From a virus (Duplodnaviria; Heunggongvirae; Uroviricota; Caudoviricetes): a stretch of 25,085 bases of DNA. The stretch spans positions 1 to 25,085 of IMG/VR virus record IMGVR_UViG_2778261692_000009; one strand, 5' to 3'. The translations under genes and the position numbers were made by a program. Numbering within the stretch: the stretch's first letter is position 1; each line of letters opens with the position of its first letter. This document shows positions 4,672-25,085 of this stretch, in pieces. The notes below the pieces were generated by a model. That model saw nothing but the letters and a program-made list of their open reading frames with translations. It did not search any database and had not been told where the DNA came from.

Positions 4672-4719
4672 GAGAGCGATCCTTGCACAACCTGGTAGAG
4701 TGATGTAATACAGAGCGTA

Positions 4720-4737: not shown

Positions 4738-4766
4738 AAAGAGAAACAATTTCTAAGGTATTTAAG

Positions 4767-7765: not shown

Positions 7766-7969
7766 TCAGTCCCATAGCCGGACGGTCTGCACGGTGGTGG
7801 TGGTCGGAATGTCCGGCAGCTCCACCTGCAGCCCGTGAGGTAAAAAGGGGCCGTATTCGGCAAGCCCCGGATTTGCCTTCAGTACCTGCTCCGTGACACC
7901 CTGCGTGCGCCCGTAATGACGCCAGCAAAGCGCGTCCACCGTGTCATACTGATGCGCACGCACTTTCAT
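7766..7969 (-). CDS. X: tail protein X (P2 gpX-like)
   Basis: 67 aa; ...DTVDALCWRHYGRTQGVTEQVLKANPGLAEYGPFLPHG..VELPD... is nearly collinear with recalled P2 gpX (67 aa). Confidence 0.9.
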   Translation of the reverse strand: MKVRAHQYDTVDALCWRHYGRTQGVTEQVLKANPGLAEYGPFLPHGLQVELPDIPTTTTVQTVRLWD

Positions 7970-8433
7970 CAGATAAGCTCCACTGTGCAGTGCGGCGCAT
8001 CCTGCACCCGGCTGATGGCCCAGCGGGCGTCACGCCACAAATCACCGCTGGCTTCTGACAGTTCTTCGCCCCGCTTCACACCGGATGCCGTAGCGTCATA
8101 GTCCTGGTATCGTTCGTTGAGCATGGCGCGTGCCCAGCAGTAAACCGCGTTGAAATAGTGCTGAATGCGCTCACTTTTCCCATCCAGCTGTTCTGCCGGA
8201 ACCTCTGCCAGCGAGGCATATCCCAGCATCTGCTGGCGTCTGCGAAACTCATACAGCTCTGCGTTGACCTCCGAAATTGCCGACAGGGCAACCTGTTTTA
8301 AACGCGGCTGCGTCACCGTGCCGTCAGTGCGCATGACACTGCGAAACTCCGACAGGTCCACATCAGGCCAGAACGGCGTATTCCTGATGATTTCCGCCTG
8401 TTCCGGTGCCTGTTCTGGCGCAACAAACTTCAT
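7969..8433 (-). CDS. L: head completion/stabilisation protein (P2 gpL-like)
   Basis: Internal Met at 8433 preceded by a GGAG ribosome-binding site; FWPDVDLSEFR...EVPAEQLDG...HYFNAVYCWA...CTVELI matches recalled gpL. Confidence 0.85.
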   Translation of the reverse strand: MKFVAPEQAPEQAEIIRNTPFWPDVDLSEFRSVMRTDGTVTQPRLKQVALSAISEVNAELYEFRRRQQMLGYASLAEVPAEQLDGKSERIQHYFNAVYCWARAMLNERYQDYDATASGVKRGEELSEASGDLWRDARWAISRVQDAPHCTVELI

Positions 8434-8528
8434 GCTGCTTTCTCCTGAAATAGAGGGCGGTGGACGGGGTTTTGATGTGGCTGTGCCTTTCGCCACCCCG
8501 TGCCGCCCGTGCGCGGGGGCACGTTCTG

Positions 8529-9179
8529 TCAGCGGCTGTCATTGCGCAGTCTGCGCTCCAGCTGCTGTTTGTCTTTTTTCACGCCACAGCGGGGATCGAG
8601 CTGTAACGCATGGTTGAGATGATTAAGAGCGGAAGCCGGATTACTTTCACTCAGGACAGCGCCAATCGCTTTATGCAGACGCGCCCGTGACTGGTCCGGC
8701 ATATCCAGACCGTCTGTCAGCTCCAGCGTCTGCAGCAACAGATCTGCATCAAAGCCGGTGGCAGCAAGCATTGCGCTCTGCGCCGCGTCTGCCATTTCCT
8801 CTGCCAGCACGGTCTGCACGTTGCGGTTACCCAGCGGCATCACCCAGCCATGACGCAGGGCATGACGCCCGATCTCCAGCGCCCCGGCATAATCTCCGGC
8901 ATCAATGCGCCACAGCATCACGTACATCAGCACGTCATCCTGTTGAGCGCCTCCGGCAGCCAGGACACCCTCCGCCCAGGCGGCGTATTTCGGCAGCAAC
9001 TCCACCTTGATTTCCGCTTTTTTGACCGTGGACTGAACGCCCTTGAGACGGCGGCGGTCTTCCGCCAGTTGCAGCAGCATCAGGTCATAGCCCGACGCGT
9101 GGCGAACGCTGCCGCCCTCGCGGGCGGCCTGTTCAGCCTGAACGCGCAGGCGATGCTGCCGTGCGGGACTCAGGCTCAT
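8529..9179 (-). CDS. M: terminase endonuclease (small) subunit (P2 gpM-like)
   Basis: 216 aa in the gpM position between L and N; basic N-terminus and alanine-rich helical body. Confidence 0.75.
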   Translation of the reverse strand: MSLSPARQHRLRVQAEQAAREGGSVRHASGYDLMLLQLAEDRRRLKGVQSTVKKAEIKVELLPKYAAWAEGVLAAGGAQQDDVLMYVMLWRIDAGDYAGALEIGRHALRHGWVMPLGNRNVQTVLAEEMADAAQSAMLAATGFDADLLLQTLELTDGLDMPDQSRARLHKAIGAVLSESNPASALNHLNHALQLDPRCGVKKDKQQLERRLRNDSR

Positions 9180-9182
9180 GGG

Positions 9183-10241
9183 TTACGCTCCGGCTTCTGC
9201 TGCAGCGGCGCTGAAATCGCCAATCTGGATGTTTTCCACCAGTGCGGCGCAGCGGTAGTCCTCAACCACATAGGCTTCGTTAACGGATTCAAAGTTTTCA
9301 ATCCGGTCACGTTTCGGGTTGTCGATAACTGAACGGCGACGGGTGTCTTCCTGCCAGTAGATGGACAGGTTATCCAGACGGGTGATCAGCAGCGCATTCG
9401 GCGGGAAGAACGGCGCACGCACGGCCTGCAGGCCACCCATGCGTTTCTGGCTGATGATCATATCGGCAGCCAGTTTTTCACTGTTCTCCTGCTCTTTGTT
9501 GACCAGCGGGAAATACTTGTCAGACAACAGTTCACGACCGCAAATCACCACCAGATCGTCATCGTCCTGGTAGACCACGTCGATAAGCTCATTGACGGCA
9601 TCCATCACCACGGCGTCCAGGTTGGCATATTCTCCACCTTTCCCGACTTTCACCGCACCCGGTGTGGTTTCACCGCCCGTGGTGGTGCTGCCCATGACGT
9701 GATCCGGTGCATCCTCACGGATTTTCTGCAACCAGCCTTTGTTCACATCCTGCAGCAGCGGGTTTTCGCTACGGTTGGAGGTTTTCGCACGCTTCACGCC
9801 GTTAAAGCCGATCATGATGCGGTCCAGTGCCTGACGTTTCACGATGGCGTCACGGATGCGCACCTGGAAATCCTGAAACTTCGCCCACAGATCCAGCTTC
9901 GCGTAGGTCAGCACCGTGTCAAAGTTGGTCTGCTCGCATTTGTATTCCACATCGACCATCAGCGTCGGATCGACAGGCTCACGCTCTTTCGCGGTGGTAT
10001 CAGTGGTTCCGGCAATGGTGCTGCCAACACCCAGCCCCAGCAGCTGACCAGACTGCTCGGTCACTGGCGTGACGTTAATCAGCGTCAGGAAAGCGGCGGA
10101 TTGCTGGATCTGGTCTTCCAGCGTCTGCTGCACAGACGGCTCCATGGTGAACTTGCTGGACAGCTCTTCAACTGCCACACCGTTCAGACGCGCCAGCTGC
10201 TGCAGGTAAGCGTTAAAAGCAAAGCGGGTATTCTTCTTCAT
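9183..10241 (-). CDS. N: major capsid protein (P2 gpN-like)
   Basis: 352 aa (P2 gpN is about 357 aa); position between scaffold and small terminase. Confidence 0.88.
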   Translation of the reverse strand: MKKNTRFAFNAYLQQLARLNGVAVEELSSKFTMEPSVQQTLEDQIQQSAAFLTLINVTPVTEQSGQLLGLGVGSTIAGTTDTTAKEREPVDPTLMVDVEYKCEQTNFDTVLTYAKLDLWAKFQDFQVRIRDAIVKRQALDRIMIGFNGVKRAKTSNRSENPLLQDVNKGWLQKIREDAPDHVMGSTTTGGETTPGAVKVGKGGEYANLDAVVMDAVNELIDVVYQDDDDLVVICGRELLSDKYFPLVNKEQENSEKLAADMIISQKRMGGLQAVRAPFFPPNALLITRLDNLSIYWQEDTRRRSVIDNPKRDRIENFESVNEAYVVEDYRCAALVENIQIGDFSAAAAEAGA

Positions 10242-10257: not shown

Positions 10258-11091
10258 TCAGCAATTGGTCAGAGTGTCAGCGGGGGCGTTACCGCCTGTT
10301 GCACGCTGGCGGTAGTCCTGGCGGCTGTCTTCATGACTCAGCTTATTCACCAGTTCGTTAAAGGCGGTCTGCTGTGCCTGCAGGGCAGTCTCCAGCTCAG
10401 ACAGACGTTCTTCCTGCTCAGACAGGGATTTTTCGGTGCGTGCGCTCAGGTTCTGCTGCTCAGTGGCGACCAGCTCCACGGCCTTATGCACATCAGAGAA
10501 CCGGGCGTCATCGGACTGCTCTTTTTTGGTAAACAGCGCCGTGACACGGGCAAACAGGGACGGTTTGTCATCCTGGATTTCTTCCAGTTCGATCACCGTT
10601 TCCTCTGCAGCGGTAAAAAGATTGGCGGGATTCTGCTTGCGGTTTGCCAGCGGGTTATGGGCTGCACTGGCGCTGAATGTCAGCATTTCCGTACCCAGAC
10701 TGGCGGGATCATCAGTGGCAGCCAGGCCGACCAGATAGGCTTTGCCCGTATCAGCAAACTTCGGGCTGACTTCCATAGATGTGAATAATTTCTGGCCTTT
10801 TTTCACCAGCTCCACCAGAGATTCCGTTGGCTCAACGTCGGCATACAGCGCCATCTTGCCTGCCAGCGGACCTTCCGTGATTTCTTCAGCAAACAGCGCC
10901 GTCACCTTGCCGTAGCGGTTAAAGGTGCTGTCCGGCAGATAAGACTTGATGTGCTCAAGATTAATCAGCGCGGTATACACCGCCGGGTTGTAGCTGGCTG
11001 CCATCTGTTCCAGCCATTCACGCTGGATTTCGCGTCCGTCGGTGGTGGCACCTTCCACCCCGATGCGAAAACGCTTTGCTTTCACTGTCAT
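10258..11091 (-). CDS. O: capsid scaffolding protein (P2 gpO-like)
   Basis: 277 aa; N-terminus MTVKAKRFRIGVEGATTDGREI... and coiled-coil C-terminus; divergent from P across the late promoter region. Confidence 0.85.
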   Translation of the reverse strand: MTVKAKRFRIGVEGATTDGREIQREWLEQMAASYNPAVYTALINLEHIKSYLPDSTFNRYGKVTALFAEEITEGPLAGKMALYADVEPTESLVELVKKGQKLFTSMEVSPKFADTGKAYLVGLAATDDPASLGTEMLTFSASAAHNPLANRKQNPANLFTAAEETVIELEEIQDDKPSLFARVTALFTKKEQSDDARFSDVHKAVELVATEQQNLSARTEKSLSEQEERLSELETALQAQQTAFNELVNKLSHEDSRQDYRQRATGGNAPADTLTNC

Positions 11092-11169
11092 GAGCCGTGC
11101 TCCGTTAGAAAAAACTTACAGGAGCCTTATGGTTGCGGTGATGGGGGCAGTGAAACAATGCGCGGTATT

Positions 11170-11187
11170 TGTACCGACAACCACACA
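11170..11187. promoter_or_regulatory. TGT-N12-ACA dyad, candidate late-activator binding site in the O/P divergent late promoter region
   Basis: tgtaccgacaaccacaca, centred about 55 bp upstream of the P start codon, the same spacing as the V dyad to the V start codon. Confidence 0.45.
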
Positions 11188-11233
11188 AACCGCAGGCGGG
11201 GAAAGCCTTCATTCAAGGCTGTAGGTTTGTGCC

Positions 11234-13000
11234 ATGAACACCACACTGACACCCGCAGATCTCGATCCCCGTCGGCAGGCCATGCTGCTGTACTTTCAGG
11301 GATACCGCGTCGCCCGCATTGCTGAAATGCTGGGCGAGAAAGTTGCAACCGTTCACAGCTGGAAAAAACGCGACAAGTGGGGTGACTATGGGCCGCTGGA
11401 TCAGATGCAGCTCACCACCGCCGCACGCTACTGCCAGCTCATTATGAAGGAGCACAAAGAAGGGAAAGATTTCAAAGAGATTGACCTGCTGGCGCGCCAG
11501 TCGGAACGCCACGCGCGGATCGGCAAGTTTAACAATGGCGGCAACGAAGCCGATTTAAACCCTAACGTCGCCAACCGCAACAAAGGCCCACGCCGTCAGC
11601 CGGAAAAGAACGTTTTCACCGATGAACAGATTGAGAAGCTGGAAGAAATTTTCCATTCCTCCATGTTCAACTACCAGCGCCACTGGTGGGAAGCCGGAAA
11701 AACCAACCGCATCCGCAACCTGCTGAAGTCACGCCAGATCGGCGCGACCTTTTACTTTGCCCGTGAAGCCCTGATTGACGCTCTGCTTACCGGACGTAAC
11801 CAGATTTTTCTTTCCGCCAGCAAGGCACAGGCCCACGTCTTTAAGCAGTACATCATCGACTTCGCCAAAGAAGTGGATGTGGAGCTGAAAGGCGATCCGA
11901 TGGTGCTTCCTAACGGGGCCACGCTTTACTTCCTCGGCACCAATGCCCGCACTGCCCAGAGTTATCACGGCAACCTGTATCTGGATGAATATTTCTGGAT
12001 ACCGAAATTCCAGGAGCTGCGCAAAGTGGCTTCCGGTATGGCTATTCACAAAAAATGGCGACAAACCTATTTTTCCACGCCATCCAGCCTGACCCACAGT
12101 GCTTATCCGTTCTGGTCCGGTGTGCTGTTCAACCGTGGGCGTAACAAAGCCGACAAGGTGGACATCGACCTGTCCCACAGCAATCTTGCCCCCGGCCTGC
12201 TGTGCGCAGACGGGCAGTACCGCCAGATAGTCACAGTGGAAGATGCGGTGCGCGGTGGCTGTAACCTGTTCGACCTCGACCAGTTGCGCATGGAGTACAG
12301 CCCGGACGAATACCAGAACCTGCTGATGTGTGAGTTCGTGGACGATCTAGCGTCCGTATTCCCACTCAGCGAACTACAGGCGTGCATGGTGGACAGCTGG
12401 GAAGTCTGGACCGACTTTCATGCACTGGCCCTGCGCCCGTTTGGCTGGCGCGAAGTATGGATCGGTTATGACCCGGCGAAAGGTACGCAGAACGGCGACA
12501 GCGCCGGATGCGTGGTGGTGGCGCCGCCAGCCGTGCCAGGTGGTAAGTTCCGCATTCTTGAGCGTCACCAGTGGCGCGGGATGGACTTCCGCGCCCAGGC
12601 TGACGCCATCAAAAAACTGACCGAACAGTACAACGTGACCTATATCGGCATCGACTCAACCGGCGTTGGTCACGGGGTTTACGAGAACGTGAAAGCGTTT
12701 TTTCCTGCCGTCCGGGAGTTTGTCTACAACCCCAACGTTAAAAACGCCCTGGTACTCAAGGCCTACGACATTATCAGCCACCGCCGTCTTGAGTTTGACG
12801 CCGGGCACACCGACATTGCGCAGTCATTCATGGCAATCCGTCGCGCCACCACCGCCAGCGGCAACCGCCCGACCTATGAAGCCAGCCGCAGCGAAGAAGC
12901 CAGCCATGCCGATCTGGCCTGGGCAACAATGCACGCACTGTTTAACGAACCACTGCAGGGCGAGTCCGCCAATACCAGCAATATTGTGGAGATTTTTTGA
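11234..13000 (+). CDS. P: terminase ATPase (large) subunit (P2 gpP-like)
   Basis: 588 aa (P2 gpP about 590 aa); start-stop overlap (ATGA) with the portal gene. Confidence 0.93.
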   Translation: MNTTLTPADLDPRRQAMLLYFQGYRVARIAEMLGEKVATVHSWKKRDKWGDYGPLDQMQLTTAARYCQLIMKEHKEGKDFKEIDLLARQSERHARIGKFNNGGNEADLNPNVANRNKGPRRQPEKNVFTDEQIEKLEEIFHSSMFNYQRHWWEAGKTNRIRNLLKSRQIGATFYFAREALIDALLTGRNQIFLSASKAQAHVFKQYIIDFAKEVDVELKGDPMVLPNGATLYFLGTNARTAQSYHGNLYLDEYFWIPKFQELRKVASGMAIHKKWRQTYFSTPSSLTHSAYPFWSGVLFNRGRNKADKVDIDLSHSNLAPGLLCADGQYRQIVTVEDAVRGGCNLFDLDQLRMEYSPDEYQNLLMCEFVDDLASVFPLSELQACMVDSWEVWTDFHALALRPFGWREVWIGYDPAKGTQNGDSAGCVVVAPPAVPGGKFRILERHQWRGMDFRAQADAIKKLTEQYNVTYIGIDSTGVGHGVYENVKAFFPAVREFVYNPNVKNALVLKAYDIISHRRLEFDAGHTDIAQSFMAIRRATTASGNRPTYEASRSEEASHADLAWATMHALFNEPLQGESANTSNIVEIF

Positions 13001-14028
13001 TGGGAAAGAGTAAGAAGAACCGCGCTGCGGCGACGAAACAGATCCAGCATAAAAACCAGACTTCAGCCGAAGCATTCAGCTTCGGTGATCCCGTTCCTGT
13101 TCTGGACCGCCGCGAACTGCTGGACTATGTGGAATGCGTACAGATGGACCGTTGGTATGAGCCACCAGTGAGTTTCGACGGCCTGGCGCGAACCTTCCGC
13201 GCCGCCGTACACCACAGCTCACCGATTGCAGTAAAGTGCAACATTCTGACCAGCACCTATATCCCTCACCCGTTGCTCAGCCAGCAGGCTTTTTCACGTT
13301 TTGTGCAGGACTATCTGGTATTTGGTAACGCCTACCTGGAGAAACGCACGAACCGCTTCGGTGAAATTATCGCCCTTGAGCCTGCTCTGGCAAAATACAC
13401 CCGACGCGGGTTAGACCTGGATACCTACTGGTTTGTGCAATACGGTATGACAACCCAGCCGTATCAGTTCACGAAAGGCAGCATCTTTCATCTGATGGAA
13501 CCGGACATCAACCAGGAGATCTACGGCCTGCCTGGCTATCTTTCTGCTATTCCATCCGCTCTGCTCAACGAGTCCGCCACGCTGTTCCGCCGTAAGTATT
13601 ACATCAATGGCAGCCATGCAGGCTTCATCATGTACATGACCGATGCCGCGCAGAACCAGGAAGATGTGAACAATCTCCGTAACGCGATGAAAAGCGCCAA
13701 AGGTCCGGGTAACTTCCGCAATCTGTTTATGTACTCACCTAATGGTAAAAAAGACGGACTTCAGATTATCCCATTGTCAGAAGTCGCAGCGAAGGATGAA
13801 TTTCTGAACATCAAGAACGTCAGCCGTGATGACATGATGGCGGCGCACCGTGTACCGCCTCAGATGATGGGGATTATGCCTAATAATGTCGGGGGGTTTG
13901 GGGATGTGGAGAAGGCGAGTAAAGTGTTTGTTCGTAATGAACTTCTTCCTCTACAAAAGAAAATAATTGAAATTAACAATTGGATAGATAATGAGGTCAT
14001 AAAATTCGAATTTTATGACCTCATGTAA
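12997..14028 (+). CDS. Q: portal protein (P2 gpQ-like)
   Basis: 343 aa (P2 gpQ about 344 aa); the last roughly 100 nt of the gene are AT-rich and end in a perfect palindrome. Confidence 0.93.
   Translation: MMGKSKKNRAAATKQIQHKNQTSAEAFSFGDPVPVLDRRELLDYVECVQMDRWYEPPVSFDGLARTFRAAVHHSSPIAVKCNILTSTYIPHPLLSQQAFSRFVQDYLVFGNAYLEKRTNRFGEIIALEPALAKYTRRGLDLDTYWFVQYGMTTQPYQFTKGSIFHLMEPDINQEIYGLPGYLSAIPSALLNESATLFRRKYYINGSHAGFIMYMTDAAQNQEDVNNLRNAMKSAKGPGNFRNLFMYSPNGKKDGLQIIPLSEVAAKDEFLNIKNVSRDDMMAAHRVPPQMMGIMPNNVGGFGDVEKASKVFVRNELLPLQKKIIEINNWIDNEVIKFEFYDLM
13991..14024. repeat. 34-bp perfect palindrome inside the 3' end of Q
   Basis: atgaggtcataaaattcgaattttatgacctcat is its own reverse complement (verified base by base); it encodes the last residues of Q (EVIKFEFYDLM). 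Confidence 0.9.
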
Positions 14029-14044
14029 CTGAATAAATATAATC

Positions 14045-14073
14045 AGGTAATGACTAAGCTGAAGTCATTACCT
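14045..14073. terminator. stem-loop (11-bp stem, 7-nt loop) between convergent Q and OLD-like genes; candidate terminator
   Basis: aggtaatgact-aagctga-agtcattacct; the minus-strand side is followed by a U-rich tract, and the stem overlaps the OLD-like stop codon. Confidence 0.4.
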
Positions 14074-15994
14074 CTCTAATCTCACTAATCCACTCTGGAA
14101 CACTATTTTCTTCCGCCATTAATTCAACATATCTTTTTGCGAATAAAAACTTATTATTTCCATCATCAAAAAATCTATTTATGGCATTTTTTTCACTAAC
14201 TCTGAGATCAAGAGCTGAGTAAGATTCCAGATTATCACTTGGAGCATCAATATTATTAATGAAACTTAAATAATCGTAATCACCAGCAAATGACAATAAG
14301 GTCTGGTAATAGATTTTTGCGTTCAAAACATCCTCTATCTCAGTTGCAGGCGATACCGGATTTGAGTCTATCTTAACTAAGATCGCCCTGTTTTTAGACG
14401 AATCATAAACAAATCTTTTACAATGTAATCTTTGATATGTTCCGACGTCATATCTGACCAACTGGCTATCAGTATCAGCTAACAAATATATATTTCCGGT
14501 AATCTCCCCTTCGACATCCTTATAGCAGGCAGAGAGATAGTTATATATTTTTTTAATTTCCGACGCCCCCCCAACAGGTACAATACGAAGATTATGATTC
14601 TTTATCAAATCCTTAAAATATGCTGAAAGATAAATTCTTTCCGATGAACCCTCACAAATCAACCAATTATATGGTTTCTCACCTGTTGCACTAGATAATA
14701 ATGACTGAGTAAAATCATTCATACTTTTAATTCTAATATCAAATGGTAACTTTCCCCTACTATCTCGAACAAGTTGTTTTATTTCTTCCCGGTAAGATGC
14801 TAAATTGATCAGATCAAAAAGATGCTCATTATTTTTTTTAGTTATTATTGTAACAGTTCCCTTTTCCAAGGTGGGGAGAAAACCATACCAATGAGAGGAA
14901 AACAATAGTTGCCTACATCCTAAACTTAGTTCTGATAACGCTTGAAATTGTTCAAAACAAGCAGACATGTGCAATGAAGACTCAGGCTCATCTATGGCTA
15001 TGATTAAATTATCACTATTACTTCTATGCTTTGTCAGCAATGCATGCGCAACATCAATAATAGCCTTCTGCTTTTCCCCCGAACTCAAATTACTAATTTC
15101 TAAAAAATGCTCGCCATTGTGGGTTTTATGTAATTTTCTGACGTTAAAAAACGCTTGTATAATTAAGTTATAGACTTCTTTTTTTTGAATTCTTTTTTGC
15201 CTATCCGAAGGCGTTCTATACGTATAGTTAACTAGCTTCGTTGAGATATCTTCAAGAAATCCGCTTAGTTCTCTGTTGATTTCTCCAATTTTTGACTCAC
15301 CAACTATTCTATCAAGAATTTCATGCAGCGATTCACCCATCAATACTTGAGTTCCAATACTCTCAAGCTTAGTAAAAACCTCAGTATCAATCTCTTTTGG
15401 TATATATAAATATTCTAACTTACCAGTGATATAATCAAATAAAACTTGAAAATGTTTAGCTAACTCTATACCTTCACTTAACTTGAATCCGGCACCAAAT
15501 ATATCTTTTTCCATTATAGTAGATAGACTTCTACCTGCTAAAACAGATAATGACATATTATTATTATGAAGGCGTCCAATAGGAATAATTAACTGCCCTT
15601 GCATATCATTTCGTGCAAAAAGTCTATCACGATGACTTATAAAATTTTCAAGAATAGTTTTTGTTTGTGAGTTTGTAGCATCCTCTAAGCTAACTTCCCT
15701 AGCTAAAGCATCTAGCGTTTTTGCAAAAGGGAGTGTCTCAGAATCAAAAAAATCCTCCTCCAATATAAAAACCGGTACAATATGTGGGCTGGTTTTTTCT
15801 ATGCCGCTCTTTTTGACAGCTGTATTATAATTCCACTCTTTAGCATTAAATATTACATCCAATGCCTCAAGTATTGAGCTTTTCCCTATCCCATTATTTC
15901 CTAAGAAACCGCTAAAATTTGGAGCGTCTGTCAAAGGAATATAATTTATGCCTTGATATGTTTTGACGTTACGGATAAACAACCCGGCTATCAT
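14054..15994 (-). CDS. OLD-family nuclease-like protein (N-terminal ABC/AAA ATPase plus C-terminal TOPRIM)
   Basis: Walker A GNNGIGKSS; signature-like SSGEKQ; Walker B LIIAIDEPESSLH; C-terminal LICEGSSE...IVPVGGASE...YLLADTDSQ collinear with recalled P2 Old TOPRIM motifs (LLVEGKTE...IVAVDGKG...ILADCDF). Likely start is Met29 at 15994 (MIAGLFIRNVKTYQ, AAGGTAGG ribosome-binding site); ORF track extends to 16078. AT-rich. Confidence 0.8.
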   Translation of the reverse strand: MIAGLFIRNVKTYQGINYIPLTDAPNFSGFLGNNGIGKSSILEALDVIFNAKEWNYNTAVKKSGIEKTSPHIVPVFILEEDFFDSETLPFAKTLDALAREVSLEDATNSQTKTILENFISHRDRLFARNDMQGQLIIPIGRLHNNNMSLSVLAGRSLSTIMEKDIFGAGFKLSEGIELAKHFQVLFDYITGKLEYLYIPKEIDTEVFTKLESIGTQVLMGESLHEILDRIVGESKIGEINRELSGFLEDISTKLVNYTYRTPSDRQKRIQKKEVYNLIIQAFFNVRKLHKTHNGEHFLEISNLSSGEKQKAIIDVAHALLTKHRSNSDNLIIAIDEPESSLHMSACFEQFQALSELSLGCRQLLFSSHWYGFLPTLEKGTVTIITKKNNEHLFDLINLASYREEIKQLVRDSRGKLPFDIRIKSMNDFTQSLLSSATGEKPYNWLICEGSSERIYLSAYFKDLIKNHNLRIVPVGGASEIKKIYNYLSACYKDVEGEITGNIYLLADTDSQLVRYDVGTYQRLHCKRFVYDSSKNRAILVKIDSNPVSPATEIEDVLNAKIYYQTLLSFAGDYDYLSFINNIDAPSDNLESYSALDLRVSEKNAINRFFDDGNNKFLFAKRYVELMAEENSVPEWISEIREVMTSA

Positions 15995-16084
15995 ATCTAT
16001 ACCTACCTTGGAATTAAAGAATGCTTTAGCACTTTGAAAACTTGCTGCAAATGATAACAGCATCGACATGGTTTGCAACGCGCG

Positions 16085-16103
16085 CTCGTATCCCCGCCAC
16101 GCC
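16085..16103 (-). other. candidate cos cohesive-end sequence
   Basis: Minus strand reads GGCGTGGCGGGGATACGAG; the first 13 nt match the cos 19-mer as I recall it for phage 186 (GGCGTGGCGGGGAAAGCAT) and reading onward leads toward Q, as at the P2 left end. From memory, not verified. Confidence 0.45.
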
Positions 16104-16489
16104 TGCCCGCTTTATGTAGTGGTTTTCATGCACTTGCATGACATAAACAAAAGCCCGCCATTCCTGGCGGGCCTCAGCTAAAACGATCCTCAAACGATCA
16201 TGCGAATTCATGCGGCATAGACATGCATTGTTGCTTTATCGATCTTTTCTTACTTCAAGTGAGTCCTTATGGCCTCCTGTCCACCTTGCGCTGCGCGTTC
16301 CCCCTGCCTCCCTTTGTCATAACTTAGATTTAATTCTCATAAATCAAGAGGTACTACACAAAGTACTAACTCACAATATTCAATAAACAGCCAATAATGA
16401 GCATAATACTAACTTGACTACTCCATAAAAAAATACGTAAACTACATTCATCAATAGTATTTCTCTAAAAAAGACGGGGTCACAATTCA

Positions 16490-17020
16490 ATGGCTACTAC
16501 CAACTGTATTACTGTACTTACTGCTCGTGGTTTAACAGAGATTTTGAACACAGGGGGAAGCCAAGCATGGAGACTTGACGCCAGCCATGCAGCTAAGCAC
16601 GAATATTTAGTTTGTGTACAAAATTCGAGAAAGGACTGGGGATCACAAGAAGCAAAACATCATCATGCTTTTATGATCGGTCGAATCTCGGGAGTAAGCA
16701 GGGCTCCAGAAAACCCTAAACGCTGGATCATAAACATCAATTCTTATGCTGAAATTGACATCCCAGGACAATGGGATGGCAATCGGAATCCCGTATCTTA
16801 TCGCAACCTCAAAGACATTGGCATTGAGGCTGACAAGTTGGAATTTAAAGCTCTTCCAAAATTAACCCCGACTAATTCGATTGTCGATCAAGCGGGTGAT
16901 GAGTACGAAGAAGAAGAAGAAAATGTAGTTAAGCCGTTAACACTTCAGGAGGCAAAAGCAGGGCTAGCCCTATACTTTGGTGTTAATGAAGAAAATATTC
17001 AAATAACTATACAAGGTTAA
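16490..17020 (+). CDS. hypothetical protein (176 aa, acidic C-terminal tract)
   Basis: ORF preceded by about 390 bp of AT-rich non-coding DNA; contains DEYEEEEEN; no family recognised; opposite strand to neighbouring phage genes. Confidence 0.5.
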   Translation: MATTNCITVLTARGLTEILNTGGSQAWRLDASHAAKHEYLVCVQNSRKDWGSQEAKHHHAFMIGRISGVSRAPENPKRWIININSYAEIDIPGQWDGNRNPVSYRNLKDIGIEADKLEFKALPKLTPTNSIVDQAGDEYEEEEENVVKPLTLQEAKAGLALYFGVNEENIQITIQG

Positions 17021-17241
17021 GGCTTTTAAACCGGCATAAGTGGCCATTACTTTTCGTTCGAAGTGGCGCTTCCGGTCTAACAAGCATCTAATAGGATTTT
17101 CGTATCTATCACAAATCCCAAAAGGTAATTTGCAGCCCATCATACGTAGCAAAACTAACGTTCGGTTAAATCTGAGCGGAAGTGAAAATAATGGTTACTG
17201 TATTTTACCCCATGACTAATGCCCCACTAAACTAGTTGTTC

Positions 17242-17284
17242 AACGTTGCTGACGTCAGAAGCAAGTTCAGACGCCAGCAACGTT
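17242..17284. terminator. imperfect inverted repeat just downstream of the DinI-like gene; possible terminator
   Basis: aacgttgctg (17242-17251) pairs with cagcaacgtt (17275-17284) around a 23-nt loop; the stem extends by 3 bp with one mismatch (17-nt loop); a TTTCTT tract follows on the plus strand. Confidence 0.25.
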
Positions 17285-17286
17285 TC

Positions 17287-17520
17287 TTAATGCAGCCAGC
17301 TGTCGTCTTCCCACACCTTCTGCATAATTTTCATCACTTGTTTTCTTTCTTCGTCCAGTTGCAGTCCGGTCAGTTCCACACCATTAGAGCTACCTTTACG
17401 GATACGAATTACCGCTTTGGGATACAGGGGGCGCAGATTGCGGTAAAGCTCGGATTCAAGGGCGTCCAGAGTAGACTGGCTAATTTTCTGCTCTTTATCG
17501 ATCATTATTTCAATGCGCAT
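17287..17520 (-). CDS. DinI-family protein, Tum-like SOS-induced antirepressor candidate
   Basis: From the internal Met at 17520 (MRIEIMIDKEQKISQSTLDALESELYRNL...VWEDDSWLH) the protein resembles E. coli DinI (MRIEVTIAK...ALAGELSRR...TWESADDWF); GAGGTGG ribosome-binding site upstream; downstream of a LexA box. Confidence 0.8.
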   Translation of the reverse strand: MRIEIMIDKEQKISQSTLDALESELYRNLRPLYPKAVIRIRKGSSNGVELTGLQLDEERKQVMKIMQKVWEDDSWLH

Positions 17521-17530
17521 AAAAGCCACC

Positions 17531-17719
17531 TCAACTGATGACATCCATTGAGCGGTTGTATTCGTGGATTCTGATCTTTGCCATGAGTTCATCAGTCAAT
17601 TCAGAAACCCACTGCAGAGCCAGCCCCTTCTCTTCATCACTACACTCACTAGCCGCTACAAGCTTAAGAAAAAAATCAATGCGCTGGAGCTTCAAAGACT
17701 CCAAAAAATAGTCCTGCAT
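17531..17719 (-). CDS. small hypothetical protein, first gene of the LexA-controlled operon
   Basis: 62 aa from the ATG at 17719 with a perfect AGGAGG ribosome-binding site; its stop lies 11 nt upstream of the DinI-like start; different reading frame from the DinI-like ORF. Confidence 0.5.
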   Translation of the reverse strand: MQDYFLESLKLQRIDFFLKLVAASECSDEEKGLALQWVSELTDELMAKIRIHEYNRSMDVIS

Positions 17720-17762
17720 TTTTCCTCCTATGACACCACAAGCAATACTGTATGTATAACCA

Positions 17763-17778
17763 CTGTTTATATTTACAG
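17763..17778. promoter_or_regulatory. LexA operator (SOS box) overlapping the promoter of the Tum-like operon
   Basis: CTGTTTATATTTACAG is a perfect CTGT-N8-ACAG with an AT-rich spacer; on the minus strand a -35 TTTACA (17803..17798) and -10 TACTGT (17780..17775) are 17 bp apart, with the -10 overlapping the box. Confidence 0.7.
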
Positions 17779-17872
17779 TATATAATAATCTTACTGATGT
17801 AAAACGTTTTTTTACATTCATTAGCATGATATGCCTGGTATTATTAAGAGCACGAATTGTTAGCCCGCGGAA

Positions 17873-20287
17873 TTAATACAGGTTCCGCCACTTATCATCT
17901 TCCCGCAAACGCTGGTTCCGATAGAAGATACGCAGGCCTGCTCCTGACGGAATACTGCCGCCGCGAAGGAGTAAATCGACCTCTTTCTCGCTACCATCAA
18001 ATCCTCTGGACTTCAGCTCATAGACGAGCTGCAGTCGCTGATGGTCTGTAATTCGCTGTTTGTAGTCTTTACGCCGTTTCGGTTTAACCAGGCGTAACCT
18101 TGCTGCCAGTTCCCAGCGCTCTTTTTTGCTCTTACTGTGCAGGTAATCGTGCAACTCCTTGTCATCCATGCGGGTAATGTCCGTTCTAGTGCCCCCATCA
18201 GCTGATTTATCTTTCTCCTGTTGGTTCAAATTTTCAGCAAGGGGACAGTTATTGCCACGAGTCCAAGGGGCGCAAGCGCCCTGGTCGGCTGCCGCCTCCT
18301 GAACGTCAACGGCTTTACGAACCATTTTCCACTTCACTGCATGAGTGCAGATCTTGCCCTCTGCAATGGGTGACCAGATGCCATAAATACGAATGCCGTG
18401 ATCGCCATAGGCGGTCGGCTCTTCGTTGATTTCATAAGCGGTTCTGATGAGGTGATATTTACGGGGAACCAGTACGCCGCCCTGCTTCATGATGTAGGTG
18501 GCAAAACAACCAGCATCAGCAGCAGCCAGGATGGCATCAAGGCGCGGGTTATCCAATACCGGCGCACCTGCTTTTTTGTCCCCCTTTTGCCTTACCGCCT
18601 GACCAGCCAGCAATCGCAGTTCACGGTAAGCCTGACGCCCCGGAATGCCAAAGAAGCGGAATTGCTGAACACGATGCAAAGACGCCCAGGCATTCACGTA
18701 TTCAGCGTTATCACGCAGAGATTTACCCGTTTCCTTGCTGATCTCGCCAGCCAGACCACGCCCGTCAATGTTCTTACTGATGTATTTCGCTATGTAGCTT
18801 GTCGGCGTTCCTTTGCGCGGGTTAATCAGCTCAGACTTAAAGCGCGGCCCCGTGTTATTGCCCAGCTCCTCGCGGTCTTCACGGATAGCAAACTTACGCA
18901 ACAATGCTGTAATGGCGCGGCGGTCTTTTTTGCGCATGAAACACAACAGGTGCCAGTGAACTGTGCCGTCGTGATGCGGCTCAGCCACCCGCACGCCATA
19001 CCAGCGCAACCCGGCTTTGTGCATCGCCTTACGAAATGCAGCAAACATACCGACCAGATAATCGCTGCTTTGTCTTACCGTCGCATTTGTCCAGGTCGGG
19101 TTGGGCCTGCCGTTATTTAGCGTGGAATGGAAACGTGACGGACAGGTGATGGTGTAGAAAACGGCGCAGTCACCGCGCATTTCCGCGATAAGCTCCAGAC
19201 CTTTAACACAGGCCATCATCTCATTGCGGCGATGCGCAGGGTTGCTGCTGCTGGCGTTTACCACATCCTCCATGTCTAGCGTGTCGCCGTCTTCGTTCAC
19301 CAGTTCATGAGAACGGAAAAACTCCAGCGACTTACGGCGCTGCTCACGTTTATGCAACACGGCTTCATAGCTGACATAGGGAGATGCTTTTTTGCTGACA
19401 AGGCAGACAGCACGCAACTGCTCTTCCCGCCATTCGCAACGCATCTTCCATAATTTCCGATACCACCAGTCGGCGCACAACATACGCGCCAGCGAACCCG
19501 GAATGAGTTCATAGGGCACGGGTTTACGGCGGTTTCTTTTCCGACGGAGTTGCTCAAACGCAGGCGGGATGACATCCAGACGCAGGGTTTCCGCTGCCAC
19601 CCTTTCCCATGTATTGCGGATTTCTTCTGGCTTAACGTCATCGGTGGCATACAAATCGCCACAAGCGGCATCAAGGCACATACTCATATGCGCAGCTACC
19701 AGGGTGGACAGGCGTTTCACCTGATCCTGACTCATTTCAGGCAGGATCAGCAGGCCGTCCAGCCCTTCATGGCTTGCCATAAAGCGAAAAGATGCAGATA
19801 GCTGACTGTCGCGTACATGCTCCAGTCGTTCCAGACATGGCTTAATCGTCTCACGTAAATAGCGGGAATAAGCCTTTGGCCTGCCCAGGCTGCTGAAGTA
19901 TTCAATACGTTGCATCAGCGGCTTGCTGATATGGGAAGGCTGGGCGTTGACGTCCGCCAGAATGACCATATCCGGATTAAAACGCTGCTGCTCATGCGCC
20001 AGCTTTGCCCGACTAATGAGCTTATCCTGTTCCATTTCGCGCTGGACAGGATCACGGGATTCATTAAAGAAATAACGCTCCCAGACCTGATCACTCAGCG
20101 CCTCACGGCGCAGCTGTTCCTGCTCGTTATCGGCAGCGTACAGAGTGATCAGGTTTGAAAGCGTAGAAACCGGCGCAACTTCCACCGGGTCCAGATAAGG
20201 GTTAATGGCCTTTTTCGAGCTGTTCCATGAGAACGATGCGGCAGCTTCGTTAAAGCCGCAGCAGTTGTTCATATCGGCATGACTCAT
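17873..20287 (-). CDS. A: replication initiation endonuclease (P2 gpA-like, rolling-circle HUH family)
   Basis: 804 aa; HUH-like motif (VHWHLL) and paired active-site tyrosines (YIAKYISK), as in P2 A; start overlaps the Dam stop. Confidence 0.9.
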
Positions 20288-21141
20288 GCACGTACTCCGT
20301 ACACGGCAGAACTATCCACGCCACGCGAATAATCAAATCCCACCCAGCAGCGCGGCCCGGAAACAGCAATGATTTCTGTTGCTGATTTACCCTCGCCAGC
20401 TGCCACACCGATGCTGCGTTTTGCCTTGATGTAGTGGTGAGTAAAATTGCGATACAGCGAACGGATCAGGGATGTGTCACTGTTAGAAACAATGACCGGA
20501 TGTCCTTCTGATGACCGATGTTCAAGAACAGATGCCAGGTGATACTGGTCATCTTCAGTGAAGCCGTCAGTGTGATAGCCGTAAAACGTACCGTCATACG
20601 GCGGATCGCAATACACCACATCCCCCGCCTTCAACATCGCCAGCGTTTCATCAAAGCTGGCGCAGATAAACGTTGCTCGCTGGGCCTTTTCTGCAAATGC
20701 GCGAATTTCTTTTTCAGGGAAATACGGATTTTTATAATTACCGTAGGGAATGTTGAAATGCCCGCTCTTGTTATAGCGACATAAACCACGGTAACCGTGA
20801 CGATTGAGATACAGGAAATATACCGCTTTCATGAAATCAGTAATTTCAGTTGAGTAATTAAACTCCTGCCTTATGTTGTAATAAGCCACCTCCCTGTTTG
20901 CGATCTCAAATAAAACTCTGGCGCGAGATATAAACGATTCACAATCAGCGGCAACCTTTTTATAGAGGTTGATTAAATCAGGATTAATATCCGCAACCAG
21001 ATAGCTGGGATAATCCGTCTCCATCATCACAGCACAGGAACCCGCGAAAGGTTCAACCAGTCGCGGGCCAGCAGGAAGATGTTTTTTTAGTTCGGACATT
21101 ATGGCAGTTTTATTTCCCGCCCATTTCAGGATGGTGCTCAT
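20284..21141 (-). CDS. dam: DNA adenine methyltransferase (Dam family, GATC-type N6-adenine MTase)
   Basis: From the internal Met ([11 protein letters not shown]...) the protein is collinear with recalled E. coli Dam ([36 protein letters not shown]); ATG overlaps the upstream zinc-finger gene stop. Confidence 0.92.
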
Positions 21142-21365
21142 ACAGCACCTCCGTTGTAATGTTTGCCTTTCAGCTCTGCGATTTCCTGACAGGTAATGCA
21201 AAGCTGCACACCCGGAATGGCACGGCGGCGTGCTGGCGGAATTGGCGCTTCACACTCAATGCAAAGCACGCGGGACACGCCCGGCGTTTTGGCACGGGCA
21301 GCACGGATATGGCGTTGGCGTTCTTCTTCAACGCGCTGCTGTACGAGATCCATTGCATCAGCCAT
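21138..21365 (-). CDS. TraR/DksA-family C4 zinc-finger protein
   Basis: 75 aa with CIECEAPIPPARRRAIPGVQLCITCQ (CxxC-x17-CxxC); common small early-operon gene of P2-family phages. Confidence 0.7.
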   Translation of the reverse strand: MADAMDLVQQRVEEERQRHIRAARAKTPGVSRVLCIECEAPIPPARRRAIPGVQLCITCQEIAELKGKHYNGGAV

Positions 21366-22178: not shown

Positions 22179-22694
22179 TCACAGCAAACCAAATGAAGCA
22201 CCGAGGCCAGTCACGGTATCAACTGCACTCGCCATCGCAGGATTAGCCTGTAAACGGGCCTGCAATGAAACAGCCGCCAGCGCCATCAGTCGTGTTACAG
22301 AGTTAATGCTGCTGATAGCATCACGACGACCGGCACAGGTTTTTACATCGCCAGACACCGCACCTGCAGCAACACGCCCGATCTCTGCGGTTGCACTCAT
22401 GACGTAATGTGGCAGTTTCTCTTTTGCCACCTCATTAATCGGTACACATGGCAGACAATGAATCTGTGCCAGAAAACCATCTACCAGCGTTGAATCTTCA
22501 GTCAGATCGGTAAGCAGCCAGATTTCTGGTGCGGTTAATAAATGAGGCTGAGCTGGGTTCAGCTTGTTCCGCAGAATCTGCACATTCATGCCTGCACGTT
22601 CTGCCAGTTGCACCAGATTGTGGCGCAGTGCAAATGCACGACAGGCTTCATCAAAATGTGGATGTTTGGAAACTTGGTAATCAAACATGGTCAA
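22179..22694 (-). CDS. cII: phage regulatory CII-family protein (186 CII-like)
   Basis: 171 aa; [45 protein letters not shown]...[23 protein letters not shown] matches my recollection of the CP76/CII family; second gene of the early lytic operon. Confidence 0.7.
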
Positions 22695-22942: not shown

Positions 22943-23067
22943 GATGCAACATTCCTCGTTTAATGATGATTAATCAGGACGAATACGGATCGTTTGTATT
23001 TTGTGAACACCATAAACATACGATCGCACGTTGAAATCGTCAAGATAAAAGTTCACTTGGAGTGACC
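22943..23067. promoter_or_regulatory. lysis-lysogeny switch region (early lytic promoter, cI promoter and operators)
   Basis: Intergenic region between divergent apl-like and cI genes; contains an imperfect inverted repeat GGATCGTTTGT ... ACATACGATCG that may be operator half-sites. Confidence 0.5.
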
Positions 23068-23637
23068 ATGAATTTGGAGAAAGGCGGACGAGGCGCCATA
23101 GAGCGCATGGTAGAAGCTTATGGATTCAAGACTCGACAGGCGTTGTGCGATCATTTAGGAATCTCTAAAAGTACACTCGCCACACGCTACATGCGTGACT
23201 CATTCCCAGCAGAATGGGTAATCCAGTGCGCCCTTGAAACAGGCACCTCGCTTAATTGGCTCACAACCGGGCATGGTTCAAAGCAAACTTCAGGTAATAC
23301 AAATACTATGGAAGTTGCTAAATATGTATTATCTGATGGGGCCTTGTGTGAAGACGGTTTTTATATTTTCGATAGAGAATTTCTACCGTCGGCATTCAAG
23401 AATCTTTTTGTAATCACAGATAATAATTCTGAATTTATTTGTGATAAGGAATTTGATGATATACGTGATGGTAAATGGGTAATAAGTATTGATGGCGAAA
23501 TAACGATCCGTGACATTACTCGTTTACCCGGTGGAAGAATCTTCGTCGAGGGTGGAAACAGAGCCTTTGAATGTAAGATAGAAGACATTGAAATAATTGG
23601 TAAAATTATAAGTTTAACAGTCAAGTATGTTAAATAG
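23068..23637 (+). CDS. cI: CI-type immunity repressor (186 CI-like)
   Basis: About 190 aa; N-terminal helix-turn-helix-like region (QALCDHLGISKSTLATRY); ATG at 23068 with a GGAG ribosome-binding site (ORF track uses GTG at 23062); AT-rich; upstream of int. Confidence 0.7.
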   Translation: MNLEKGGRGAIERMVEAYGFKTRQALCDHLGISKSTLATRYMRDSFPAEWVIQCALETGTSLNWLTTGHGSKQTSGNTNTMEVAKYVLSDGALCEDGFYIFDREFLPSAFKNLFVITDNNSEFICDKEFDDIRDGKWVISIDGEITIRDITRLPGGRIFVEGGNRAFECKIEDIEIIGKIISLTVKYVK

Positions 23638-23844: not shown

Positions 23845-24032
23845 CTTTTGCTTTTATATCTGCGCCTAAAATAAAAATGAGCCACAGGTTAACCGCAAAA
23901 GTTACATGATCACATAGCAAAAAGAATAGCCTACTTCATTATGGCTTCAGTGAGATGTATGGTCGCAGGATTTCATACATTGACACTGGTTATACATACA
24001 GTAAAAATGCTCTCTATTGGAGGGCATTTTTT

Positions 24033-25085
24033 ATGGCTGTACGAAAACTCACCACAGGAAAATGGCTTTGCGAATGTTACCCCGCCGGACGTAGTGGGCG
24101 TCGTGTGCGTAAACAATTCGCCACCAAAGGCGAAGCACTGGCTTTTGAGCGTCACACGATGGAAGAAACCGAAGCAAAGCCCTGGCTAGGTGAATCAGTG
24201 GATCGTCGAACACTGAAAGACGTGGTTGAGCTATGGTTCAAACTACATGGTAAATCACTGACTGCTGGGCAGCATGTCTATGACAAATTGCTGCTGATGG
24301 TTGACGCTCTGGGCAATCCCCTTGCAACTGATCTAACCTCTAAAATGTTTGCCCACTATCGAGATAAACGCCTGACAGGTGAGATCTACTTCAGCGAGAA
24401 ATGGAAGAAAGGAGCAAGCCCGGTCACCATTAACCTGGAGCAAAGCTATCTAAGTAGTGTTTTTAGCGAACTATCCCGCCTGGGCGAATGGTCGTATCCG
24501 AACCCACTGGAGAACATGCGAAAATTCACCATCGCAGAAAAAGAGATGGCATGGCTTACCCATGAGCAGATTGTTGAATTACTGGCTGATTGCAAACGTC
24601 AGGACCCAATTCTGGCACTGGTAGTTAAGATATGCTTAAGCACAGGCGCACGCTGGCGAGAAGCCGTAAATCTTACTCGTTCACAGGTGACCAAATACCG
24701 AATTACCTTTGTAAGAACGAAGGGGAAGAAAAACAGAAGCATCCCTATCAGTAAAGAGCTTTACGAAGAGATCATGGCGCTTGATGGGTTCAATTTCTTC
24801 ACAGACTGCTATTTTCAATTTTTATCCGTGATGGAAAAAACGTCTATCGTGCTCCCTCGCGGTCAACTCACACACGTTCTGCGCCATACGTTTGCGGCGC
24901 ACTTCATGATGTCGGGTGGAAACATTCTGGCCTTACAAAAAATTCTCGGACACCACGATATAAAAATGACTATGCGTTACGCACATCTGGCACCGGATCA
25001 TCTGGAAACGGCGCTCCGTTTCAATCCTCTGGCAACGCTGCCAAGTGGCGACAAAGTGGCGGCAGCGGTTGGCATTACCCCGTAA
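24033..25085 (+). CDS. int: tyrosine integrase (P2 Int-like)
   Basis: Internal Met MAVRKLTTGKW... with a GGAGGG ribosome-binding site; C-terminal catalytic region ...HVLRHTFAAHF...LGHHDIKMTMRYAHL; stop codon is the last three bases of the window, so attL/attR should lie just beyond. Confidence 0.9.
   Translation: MAVRKLTTGKWLCECYPAGRSGRRVRKQFATKGEALAFERHTMEETEAKPWLGESVDRRTLKDVVELWFKLHGKSLTAGQHVYDKLLLMVDALGNPLATDLTSKMFAHYRDKRLTGEIYFSEKWKKGASPVTINLEQSYLSSVFSELSRLGEWSYPNPLENMRKFTIAEKEMAWLTHEQIVELLADCKRQDPILALVVKICLSTGARWREAVNLTRSQVTKYRITFVRTKGKKNRSIPISKELYEEIMALDGFNFFTDCYFQFLSVMEKTSIVLPRGQLTHVLRHTFAAHFMMSGGNILALQKILGHHDIKMTMRYAHLAPDHLETALRFNPLATLPSGDKVAAAVGITP

What the first reader, a model, noticed from the sequence alone, without database searches (positions are those of the whole stretch)
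16085..16103. Candidate cos site places the OLD-like gene at the Q-proximal genome end
The minus strand reads GGCGTGGCGGGGATACGAG, sharing its first 13 nt with the 186/P2 cohesive-end 19-mer as I remember it, in the orientation expected for the end adjacent to Q. If this is cos, the OLD-like gene lies between cos and Q, and the 176-aa ORF and tum operon lie on the A side. That gives two separate cargo slots flanking cos.
Basis: partly seen in the sequence, partly recalled or inferred. Interest (0 to 1): 0.45.

Follow-up and report, generated by a model that had tools for sequence, protein, structure and literature searches.

The report
P2-family phage cos site, confirmed
The flagged 19 bases are the DNA-packaging cut site (cos) of a Fels-2/186-like prophage, flanked on each side by a swappable cargo gene, but both the site and this layout are already described.

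Summary
Window 16085-16103 (minus strand) reads GGCGTGGCGGGGATACGAG. It sits inside the conserved P2-family cos core, with about 29 conserved bp on the A side and CGCGCG on the Q side, in the P2/186 orientation relative to portal gene Q.

The identical 19-mer was mapped as cos by read-start/PhageTerm analysis in induced E. coli HS phage 1. That phage's terminase subunits are 99.5-99.7% identical to the window's. The same 19-mer is annotated as cos in Salmonella phage SEN8 and occurs in Fels-2, SopEPhi, Cartapus and MLG42.

Homology with relatives stops 6-7 bp past the 19-mer on the Q side and about 125 bp past it on the A side. This leaves two variable, low-GC slots:
- OLD-like ATPase-TOPRIM gene, between cos and Q.
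- 176-aa ORF, between cos and the LexA-controlled DinI/tum-like operon.

Some complete E. coli genomes carry one module and some the other. None of 5,426 carries both, so the slots assort independently.

Cargo between cos and Q has been reported since Dodd & Egan 1996 (retrons Ec67/Ec86). The gpA-gpQ region is the P2 defence hotspot of Rousset et al. 2022. Only this gene combination is new.

The parts
16085..16103 (-). 19-nt cohesive-end sequence GGCGTGGCGGGGATACGAG. By analogy with P2/186, the staggered terminase nicks are inferred between 16104|16103 on the minus strand and 16084|16085 on the plus strand, giving 5' overhangs.
   Evidence: Identical to the cos mapped in E. coli HS phage 1, to the annotated cos of SEN8, and to the 19-mer in Fels-2, SopEPhi, MLG42 and Cartapus.
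16078..16132 (-). About 55-bp P2-family cos core: 29 bp on the right-end (A) side, the 19-mer, then CGCGCG(T) on the left-end (Q) side. The limits are inferred from the alignment. The last base is T here and C in all nine compared elements.
   Evidence: Alignment A1. A 55-bp core conserved in P2-family phages is cited from Ziermann & Calendar 1990 in PMC5694545 and PMC3931495.
16079..16227 (-). 149-bp conserved cos block shared at 87-97% identity with Fels-2-type phages. Unrelated sequence lies on both sides of it in different phages.
16150..16175 (-). GC-rich hairpin followed by a T run (terminator-like) inside the cos block. It would stop A/tum-side transcription 47 bp before the 19-mer (inferred).
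   Evidence: Conserved in Fels-2, SEN8, Cartapus and E. coli HS.
14054..15997 (-). Q-side cargo: OLD-like ABC-type ATPase plus TOPRIM gene of 647 aa from the ATG at 15997 (the mechanical ORF runs to the TTG at 16078). It is transcribed away from cos toward Q. GC is about 34%, against 55-60% in the structural genes.
   Evidence: The same module lies next to Q and cos in at least 10 E. coli genomes at 99% identity.
13960..16076 (.). Q-side variable slot: the stretch with no homology to E. coli CFSAN061772, which carries HIRAN and HipA-domain genes there. It includes the last ~70 bp of Q and two hairpins (13991-14024 and 14045-14073).
16051..16078 (-). Promoter-like site TTGCAA-16-(TG)TATCAT, starting directly after the CGCGCG of the cos core. 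It is a candidate promoter of the OLD-like gene, based on a consensus match only.
   Evidence: The number of promoter-like sites in the region is not above shuffles.
16228..17191 (.). A-side variable slot: the stretch with no homology to E. coli MS10860, which carries a different 612-bp gene there.
16490..17020 (+). A-side cargo: 176-aa ORF of unknown function, transcribed away from cos.
   Evidence: No Pfam, NCBIfam or PADLOC hit. Full-length match to PHROG 37247, function unknown. Present with the cos block in at least 8 E. coli genomes at 99% identity.
12997..14028 (+). Portal gene Q.
   Evidence: Pfam Phage_portal. 94% identical to the E. coli HS phage 1 portal.
11234..13000 (+). Terminase large subunit P.
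   Evidence: Pfam Terminase_5, Terminase_6N and Terminase_6C. 586/588 residues identical to the E. coli HS phage 1 protein.
8529..9179 (-). Terminase small/endonuclease subunit M.
   Evidence: Pfam Phage_term_smal. 215/216 residues identical to the E. coli HS phage 1 protein.
17287..17780 (-). SOS (tum-like) operon on the A side: perfect LexA box TACTGTAAATATAAACAGT (17762-17780), a 62-aa ORF (17531-17719) and a DinI-family gene (17287-17520).
   Evidence: Compare the 186 p95-LexA-tum annotation.
17873..20287 (-). Replication gene A.
   Evidence: Pfam Phage_GPA.

Best explanation
Window 16085-16103 is the cohesive-end site (cos) of a Fels-2/186-like P2-family prophage.

Mechanism. The phage terminase (gpM at 8529-9179 plus gpP at 11234-13000) recognises the ~55-bp core, most of which lies on the A side of the cut. 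It makes nicks staggered by 19 nt, and the packaged linear genome carries 5'-GGCGTGGCGGGGATACGAG overhangs. The virion's left end therefore begins at 16103 and runs through the OLD-like gene into Q. The right end finishes after the 176-aa ORF and the conserved cos block.

Consequence for cargo. cos lies where the late P-Q operon and the early A/tum operon both terminate, so no essential transcript crosses it. DNA on either side can be replaced. The conserved 149-bp block is shared by many otherwise different phages and marks the boundary between two cargo slots that are exchanged independently. Both cargo genes are transcribed away from cos.

What is shown here: the sequence identity, the flanking core, the orientation, the intact cognate terminase genes, the variable slots and their independent assortment. 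What is shown in a near-identical phage by others: cleavage at this 19-mer. What is inferred: cleavage in this prophage, the exact nick positions, promoter and terminator function, and a defence role for the cargo.
For: - Exact 19-mer and conserved flanks aligned to P2, 186, PSP3, P4, SEN8, Fels-2, SopEPhi, Cartapus and MLG42.
- 0 of 100 shuffles give a match.
- Records with ends set at cos break at window 16103/16104.
- The identical 19-mer was mapped as cos by start-site analysis and PhageTerm in mitomycin-induced E. coli HS phage 1. I located it in the HS record at 926016, between a DinI-side cargo gene and a Q-side cargo gene.
- The window's P and M proteins are 99.7% and 99.5% identical to those of HS phage 1.
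- SEN8 and Cartapus annotate cos at this sequence with cargo genes between cos and the portal gene.
- A 149-bp block is conserved at 87-97% among Fels-2-type phages and matches in 1,271 of 5,426 E. coli genomes.
- Breakpoints lie at 16076/16077 and 16227/16228, and the two modules assort independently.
- GC is low in both slots.
Against: - There are no virion-end data for this particular prophage.
- The seventh base after the 19-mer (16078) is T here and C in all nine compared elements. The effect on packaging is unknown.
- The window ends inside the tail-fibre region and inside int, so completeness and inducibility of the prophage cannot be judged.
- The promoter and terminator calls are consensus matches only, and promoter-like sites are not enriched over shuffles.
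- The limits of the '55-bp core' are inferred from the alignment, because the original paper (Ziermann & Calendar 1990) was not readable here.
Confidence: 0.95

Rival explanations
1. The sequence is a cos relic: homologous to cos but no longer cleaved, because the prophage is defective or because the core is damaged (C-to-T at the last core position, where the OLD-like module abuts it).
For: One-base difference at 16078 relative to nine other elements. Only 25 kb of the prophage is visible, and no induction data exist for it.
Against: The other 54 core positions are identical to E. coli HS phage 1, whose cos is cleaved. M, P, Q, O, N and L are all full-length with strong Pfam matches. At least 10 E. 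coli genomes keep the same Q-OLD-cos junction region at ~99% identity.
Confidence: 0.04
2. The match is a chance GC-rich similarity, and the real packaging site lies elsewhere, for example directly next to Q as in P2 and 186.
For: In P2 and 186 cos lies only ~170 bp from Q. Here it lies 2,056 bp away (Q stop 14028, 19-mer from 16085).
Against: 0 of 100 shuffles give a match. The ~36 bp flanking the 19-mer within the core (29 on the A side, 6-7 on the Q side) are also conserved. Only 25 bp separate Q from the OLD-like gene, with no cos-like sequence there. Relatives with annotated or mapped cos have the same spacing and cargo between cos and Q.
Confidence: 0.01

Closest known systems
cos of E. 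coli HS phage 1 (Zünd et al. 2021, PMC8008629), Salmonella phage SEN8 (KT630647.2, PMC5427200) and the Fels-2/SopEPhi/Cartapus group
   Same: Identical 19-mer. Near-identical 149-bp cos block. The same position between a DinI-side cargo gene and a Q-side cargo gene. Terminase subunits 99.5-99.7% identical to those of HS phage 1.
   Different: The cargo genes on both sides differ. The base at 16078 is T instead of C.
cos of P2, 186, PSP3 and satellite P4 (19-nt 5' cohesive ends, 55-bp core; Ziermann & Calendar 1990)
   Same: The same core architecture and the same orientation relative to Q. Positions 1-13 of the overhang are identical to 186/PSP3. The flanks TGCAT.AAAACC...AAAG.GGGC and GCGCG are conserved.
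   Different: Overhang positions 14, 16, 17 and 19 differ (TACGAG against AAGCAT/AAGCAC). In P2, 186 and PSP3 there is no gene between cos and Q, only ~170 bp with a terminator annotated in P2 and 186.
Retrons Ec67/Ec86 in 186-related prophages (Dodd & Egan 1996), and the cosL-Q hotspot noted for phiCTX and phiRSY1-like phages
   Same: Foreign DNA replaces the short spacer between cos and the terminator of the packaging/portal operon.
   Different: The cargo here is an OLD-like ATPase-TOPRIM gene, not a retron. The primary paper was not readable, so this comparison rests on secondary citations.
P2 tin-old region and the gpA-gpQ cos-adjacent defence hotspot (Rousset et al. 2022; NAR 2026 gkag898)
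   Same: Accessory and defence genes next to cos, between gpA and gpQ. An OLD-family gene is transcribed away from cos.
   Different: P2 old lies on the A side of cos, whereas the OLD-like gene here lies on the Q side (a mirror image). It is only 24% identical to P2 Old over 262 aa. In the passages I read, those papers treat gpA-gpQ as one hotspot, whereas the data here resolve two slots separated by cos that assort independently.

Membership tests
P2-family cos site | GC-rich 19-nt cohesive-end sequence matching GGCG(A/T)GGCGGGGA... | tested here: met
   15/19 identical to 186, 14/19 to P2, and 19/19 to SEN8, Fels-2, SopEPhi, Cartapus, MLG42 and E. coli HS phage 1.
P2-family cos site | Conserved flanking core (~55 bp in all), asymmetric, with most of it on the right-end side | tested here: met
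   Alignment A1 has invariant columns on both flanks. Conservation ends 6-7 bp after the 19-mer on the Q side.
P2-family cos site | Location between the replication (A) end and the portal gene Q, with the 19-mer top strand antiparallel to Q | tested here: met
P2-family cos site | Cognate terminase genes (gpM, gpP) present and intact | tested here: met
   Pfam matches. 99.5% and 99.7% identity to the terminase of a phage with mapped cos.
P2-family cos site | Cleavage in vivo to give 19-nt 5' overhangs on virion DNA | not testable with these tools
   Shown only for the near-identical E. coli HS phage 1, by read-start/PhageTerm analysis.
cos-adjacent cargo/defence hotspot of P2-like phages | Variable gene content at a fixed position between conserved phage genes | tested here: met
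   Different genes at both slots in Fels-2, SopEPhi, 500465-1, SEN8, Cartapus, E. coli HS, MS10860 and CFSAN061772.
cos-adjacent cargo/defence hotspot of P2-like phages | Cargo confers anti-phage or other accessory function | not testable with these tools
   Domain-level inference only for the OLD-like gene. The 176-aa ORF has no functional annotation.
OLD-family nuclease | N-terminal ABC-type ATPase domain | tested here: met
   Pfam AAA_15 at 54.3 bits (cutoff 32.1) and AAA_21 at 53.1 bits (cutoff 27).
OLD-family nuclease | C-terminal TOPRIM nuclease domain | tested here: met
   Pfam OLD-like_TOPRIM at 27.1 bits against a cutoff of 23.2, which is marginal. The alignment to P2 Old covers the EG...VDG region.
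OLD-family nuclease | Clear sequence relatedness to characterised members | tested here: inconclusive
   24% identity to P2 Old over 262 aa, pairwise E = 2e-6. PADLOC Old, AriA and AbiLi match only at 1e-13 to 1e-15. No PDB OLD or GajA hit by sequence.

The most novel reading that the evidence does not exclude
The most novel reading not excluded has two parts.

First, the conserved 149-bp cos block may act as a portable homology anchor. Recombination within it would shuffle two independent cargo slots, one on each genome end, among P2-like phages and possibly their P4-like satellites.

Second, the OLD-like gene may be a new single-gene anti-phage system. It sits as the first gene at the virion's left end with its candidate promoter touching the cos core. 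It is absent from all 50,697 deposited phage records and only remotely related to P2 Old.

The evidence shows independent assortment with breakpoints at the edges of the block, but not the recombination mechanism or any defence activity.
Probability: 0.3. Interest if true: 0.35.

Novelty: already known. Interest (0 to 1): 0.12.

Why it matters
The result fixes the virion genome ends of this prophage and shows that its two accessory genes sit in separate slots on either side of cos. That is useful for annotation and for choosing candidate defence genes to test. It does not change the understanding of P2-like phages. The cos sequence, the cos-Q insertion hotspot and the gpA-gpQ defence hotspot are all published. 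The modest added value is the explicit evidence that the 'single' gpA-gpQ hotspot behaves as two independently exchanged slots separated by the cos block.

Tried and rejected
- Chance match: rejected.
- A second cos-like site next to Q: none. Only 25 bp separate Q and the OLD-like gene.
- tblastn of the OLD-like protein against 50,697 phage records: no match.
- PDB sequence search with the OLD-like protein: only weak SMC-head hits and no OLD or GajA structure.
- PADLOC for the OLD-like protein: only weak, partial AriA, AbiLi and Old matches, so it was not assigned to a named system.
- NCBIfam for the OLD-like protein: only sub-threshold ABC-ATPase hits.
- 176-aa ORF: nothing in Pfam, NCBIfam or PADLOC; PHROG 37247 has unknown function.
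- Dodd & Egan 1996 could not be read, and Ziermann & Calendar 1990 was not found among the held papers. Both are cited only through PMC6868368, PMC5694545, PMC3931495 and PMC9122126.
- The 19-mer pattern search did not find cos in the 500465-1 locus, although BLAST aligned the cos block there. Not pursued.
- The large protein-database searches and structure prediction were not used, because the cos question was settled without them.

Full report
**Observation.** The minus strand of window 16085-16103 reads GGCGTGGCGGGGATACGAG. It occurs once in the window, and no match within 3 mismatches appears in 100 dinucleotide-preserving shuffles. The first 13 nt equal those of the 186/PSP3 cohesive end (15/19 overall). 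P2 differs additionally at position 5 (14/19).

**Genomic context.** Pfam identifies a P2/186/Fels-2-type prophage:

| Coordinates (strand) | Feature |
|---|---|
| 700-3789 (-) | tail fibre and baseplate J |
| 7969-8496 (-) | L |
| 8529-9179 (-) | M, small terminase |
| 9183-10241 (-) | N |
| 10258-11091 (-) | O |
| 11234-13000 (+) | P, large terminase |
| 12997-14028 (+) | Q, portal |
| 14054-15997/16078 (-) | ATPase plus OLD-like TOPRIM gene |
| 16085-16103 (-) | the 19-mer |
| 16490-17020 (+) | 176-aa ORF |
| 17287-17520 (-) | DinI-family gene |
| 17873-20287 (-) | A |
| 20284-21201 (-) | Dam methylase |
| 22179-22694 (-) | CII |
| 23062-23637 (+) | CI |
| 23955-25085 (+, runs to the window end) | int |

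In the P2, 186 and PSP3 records the 19-mer is on the top strand at 1-19 and Q is on the complement. The window has the same relative orientation.

**Is it cos?** Joining the right and left ends of the P2, 186, PSP3, P4 and SEN8 records and aligning them with the window's minus strand shows the family core. The window reads CATGCAAGTGCATGAAAACCACTACATAAAGCGGGCA | 19-mer | CGCGCG, with invariant columns on both flanks.

- The exact 19-mer occurs in SEN8 (annotated and published as cos), Fels-2, SopEPhi, MLG42 and Cartapus (annotated 'putative cos site').
- Records whose ends were set at cos break at window 16103/16104. PSP3, SEN8 and EtG end there, and Smp131 starts there.
- Zünd et al. 2021 mapped the cos of mitomycin-induced E. 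coli HS phage 1, by read-start analysis and PhageTerm, to 5'-GGCGTGGCGGGGATACGAG-3' at 926016-926034 (PMC8008629, Suppl. Table S4).
- I found that sequence at 926016 in the HS chromosome record. The window's P and M proteins are 586/588 and 215/216 identical to those of HS phage 1.

The same enzyme and the same site make cleavage here very likely, although it has not been shown for this prophage. One difference is that the base 7 nt past the 19-mer (16078) is T here and C in the nine compared elements.

**Extent of the conserved block.** BLAST against phage records gives a 149-bp block (16079-16227) at 87-97% identity in Fels-2-type phages of Salmonella, Klebsiella, Escherichia and Yersinia, with nothing conserved beyond it. 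The block contains a terminator-like hairpin (16150-16175, minus strand), a tandem 11-mer and CATGC/GCATG motifs. 1,271 of 5,426 complete E. coli genomes match the 3.2-kb query around cos (13900-17100), most of them apparently only over the ~150-bp cos block.

**Two cargo slots.**
- E. coli MS10860 is 97.9% identical to the window over 11000-16227. It is unrelated over 16228-17191, and homology resumes at 17192.
- E. coli CFSAN061772 is homologous over 12368-13959 and 16077-20170. Between Q and cos it carries HIRAN and HipA-domain genes instead.
- In the E. coli search, one set of genomes matched 13900-16227 (Q end, OLD-like gene, cos block) at ~99% identity. Another set matched 16077-17100 (cos block, 176-aa ORF) at ~99%. 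None matched both.
- Fels-2, SopEPhi, 500465-1 (TIR-domain gene), SEN8 (HNH gene), Cartapus (DUF4145 gene) and HS phage 1 each carry different genes between cos and Q. Most also carry different genes between DinI and cos.
- GC drops from 55-60% in the structural genes to ~34% in the OLD-like gene and ~41% in the A-side slot.
- Both cargo genes point away from cos.
- A promoter-like site (TTGCAA-16-TGTATCAT, 16078-16051) starts directly after the cos core. This is a consensus match only.

**The cargo.**
- The OLD-like protein has an ABC-type ATPase (AAA_15, AAA_21) and a marginal but above-threshold OLD-like TOPRIM domain.
- It is 24% identical to P2 Old over 262 aa and matches PADLOC AriA, AbiLi and Old only weakly.
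- It has no tblastn hit in 50,697 phage records and no PDB relative by sequence beyond SMC heads.
- The 176-aa ORF matches only PHROG 37247, of unknown function.
- The 'tum operon' is supported. A perfect LexA box (17762-17780) precedes a 62-aa ORF and a DinI-family gene, as with p95-tum in 186.

**Mechanism.** From established P2 biology, terminase (gpM plus gpP) binds the asymmetric core and nicks 19 nt apart. Packaged genomes carry complementary 5' overhangs that anneal after injection. For this window that places the OLD-like gene as the first gene at the left (Q) end, and the 176-aa ORF as the last gene at the right (A) end.

The late P-Q operon and the early A/tum operon both end before cos, which is an inference from gene orientation and terminator-like hairpins. 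DNA on either side of cos is therefore dispensable and replaceable. The shared cos block marks the slot boundary and may serve as the recombination anchor; that last point is an inference.

**Comparison with what is known.**
- Retrons Ec67 and Ec86 replace ~180 bp between cos and the terminator of a packaging gene in a 186-related prophage (Dodd & Egan 1996, as cited in PMC6868368).
- Rousset et al. 2022 define the cos-proximal gpA-gpQ region as a defence hotspot with 1,650 gene arrangements. A 2026 NAR study confirms this across 8,165 P2-like prophages.
- P2's own old gene sits on the other (A) side of cos and is also transcribed away from it.

**Verdict.** The feature is an already known kind, and this cos sequence has already been mapped in a near-identical phage. 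The new elements are the specific pairing of cargo genes and the explicit evidence that the hotspot consists of two independently assorting slots.

Noticed in passing
window 17746-17780: A perfect LexA-box consensus (TACTGTAAATATAAACAGT, 17762-17780) overlaps a second, weaker box (17746-17764). Both lie just upstream of a 62-aa ORF and a DinI-family gene, an SOS-controlled tum-like operon as in phage 186.
   Followed up: partly
window 23985-24003: A LexA-box-like palindrome, TACTGTATGTATAACCAGT, is nearly identical to the 17746-17764 box. It lies just inside the start of the integrase ORF (23955-25085), downstream of CI. Its significance is unknown.
   Followed up: no
window 4719-5633 (+): A 304-aa ORF lies on the opposite strand within the tail/baseplate gene cluster. 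GC is ~34-36% against ~57% around it, and there is no Pfam or PADLOC hit. It looks like a third cargo insertion, possibly the equivalent of the P2 orf30 position; that comparison is from memory.
   Followed up: partly
window 13991-14073: A 34-bp perfect palindrome (13991-14024) lies inside the last codons of Q. A second hairpin (14045-14073) overlaps the stop codon of the convergent OLD-like gene. Together they may form a bidirectional terminator in the 25-bp gap. Homology of Q to CFSAN061772 ends ~70 bp before the Q stop codon.
   Followed up: partly
window 16176-16227: The distal part of the conserved cos block contains a tandem 11-mer (CTAAAACGATC/CTCAAACGATC) and repeated CATGC/GCATG motifs. 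These may be terminase-binding elements.
   Followed up: no
window 13900-17100 against E. coli genomes: None of 5,426 complete E. coli genomes carries the window's combination of OLD-like module and 176-aa module, although each module is present separately at ~99% identity in several genomes.
   Followed up: yes
window 20284-21201 (-): A D12-class Dam methylase gene lies directly upstream of A, as in Fels-2, SEN8 and E. coli HS phage 1. The Fels-2 record notes similarity of its homologue to a protein annotated 'retron EC67 DNA adenine methylase' in E. coli HS.
   Followed up: no
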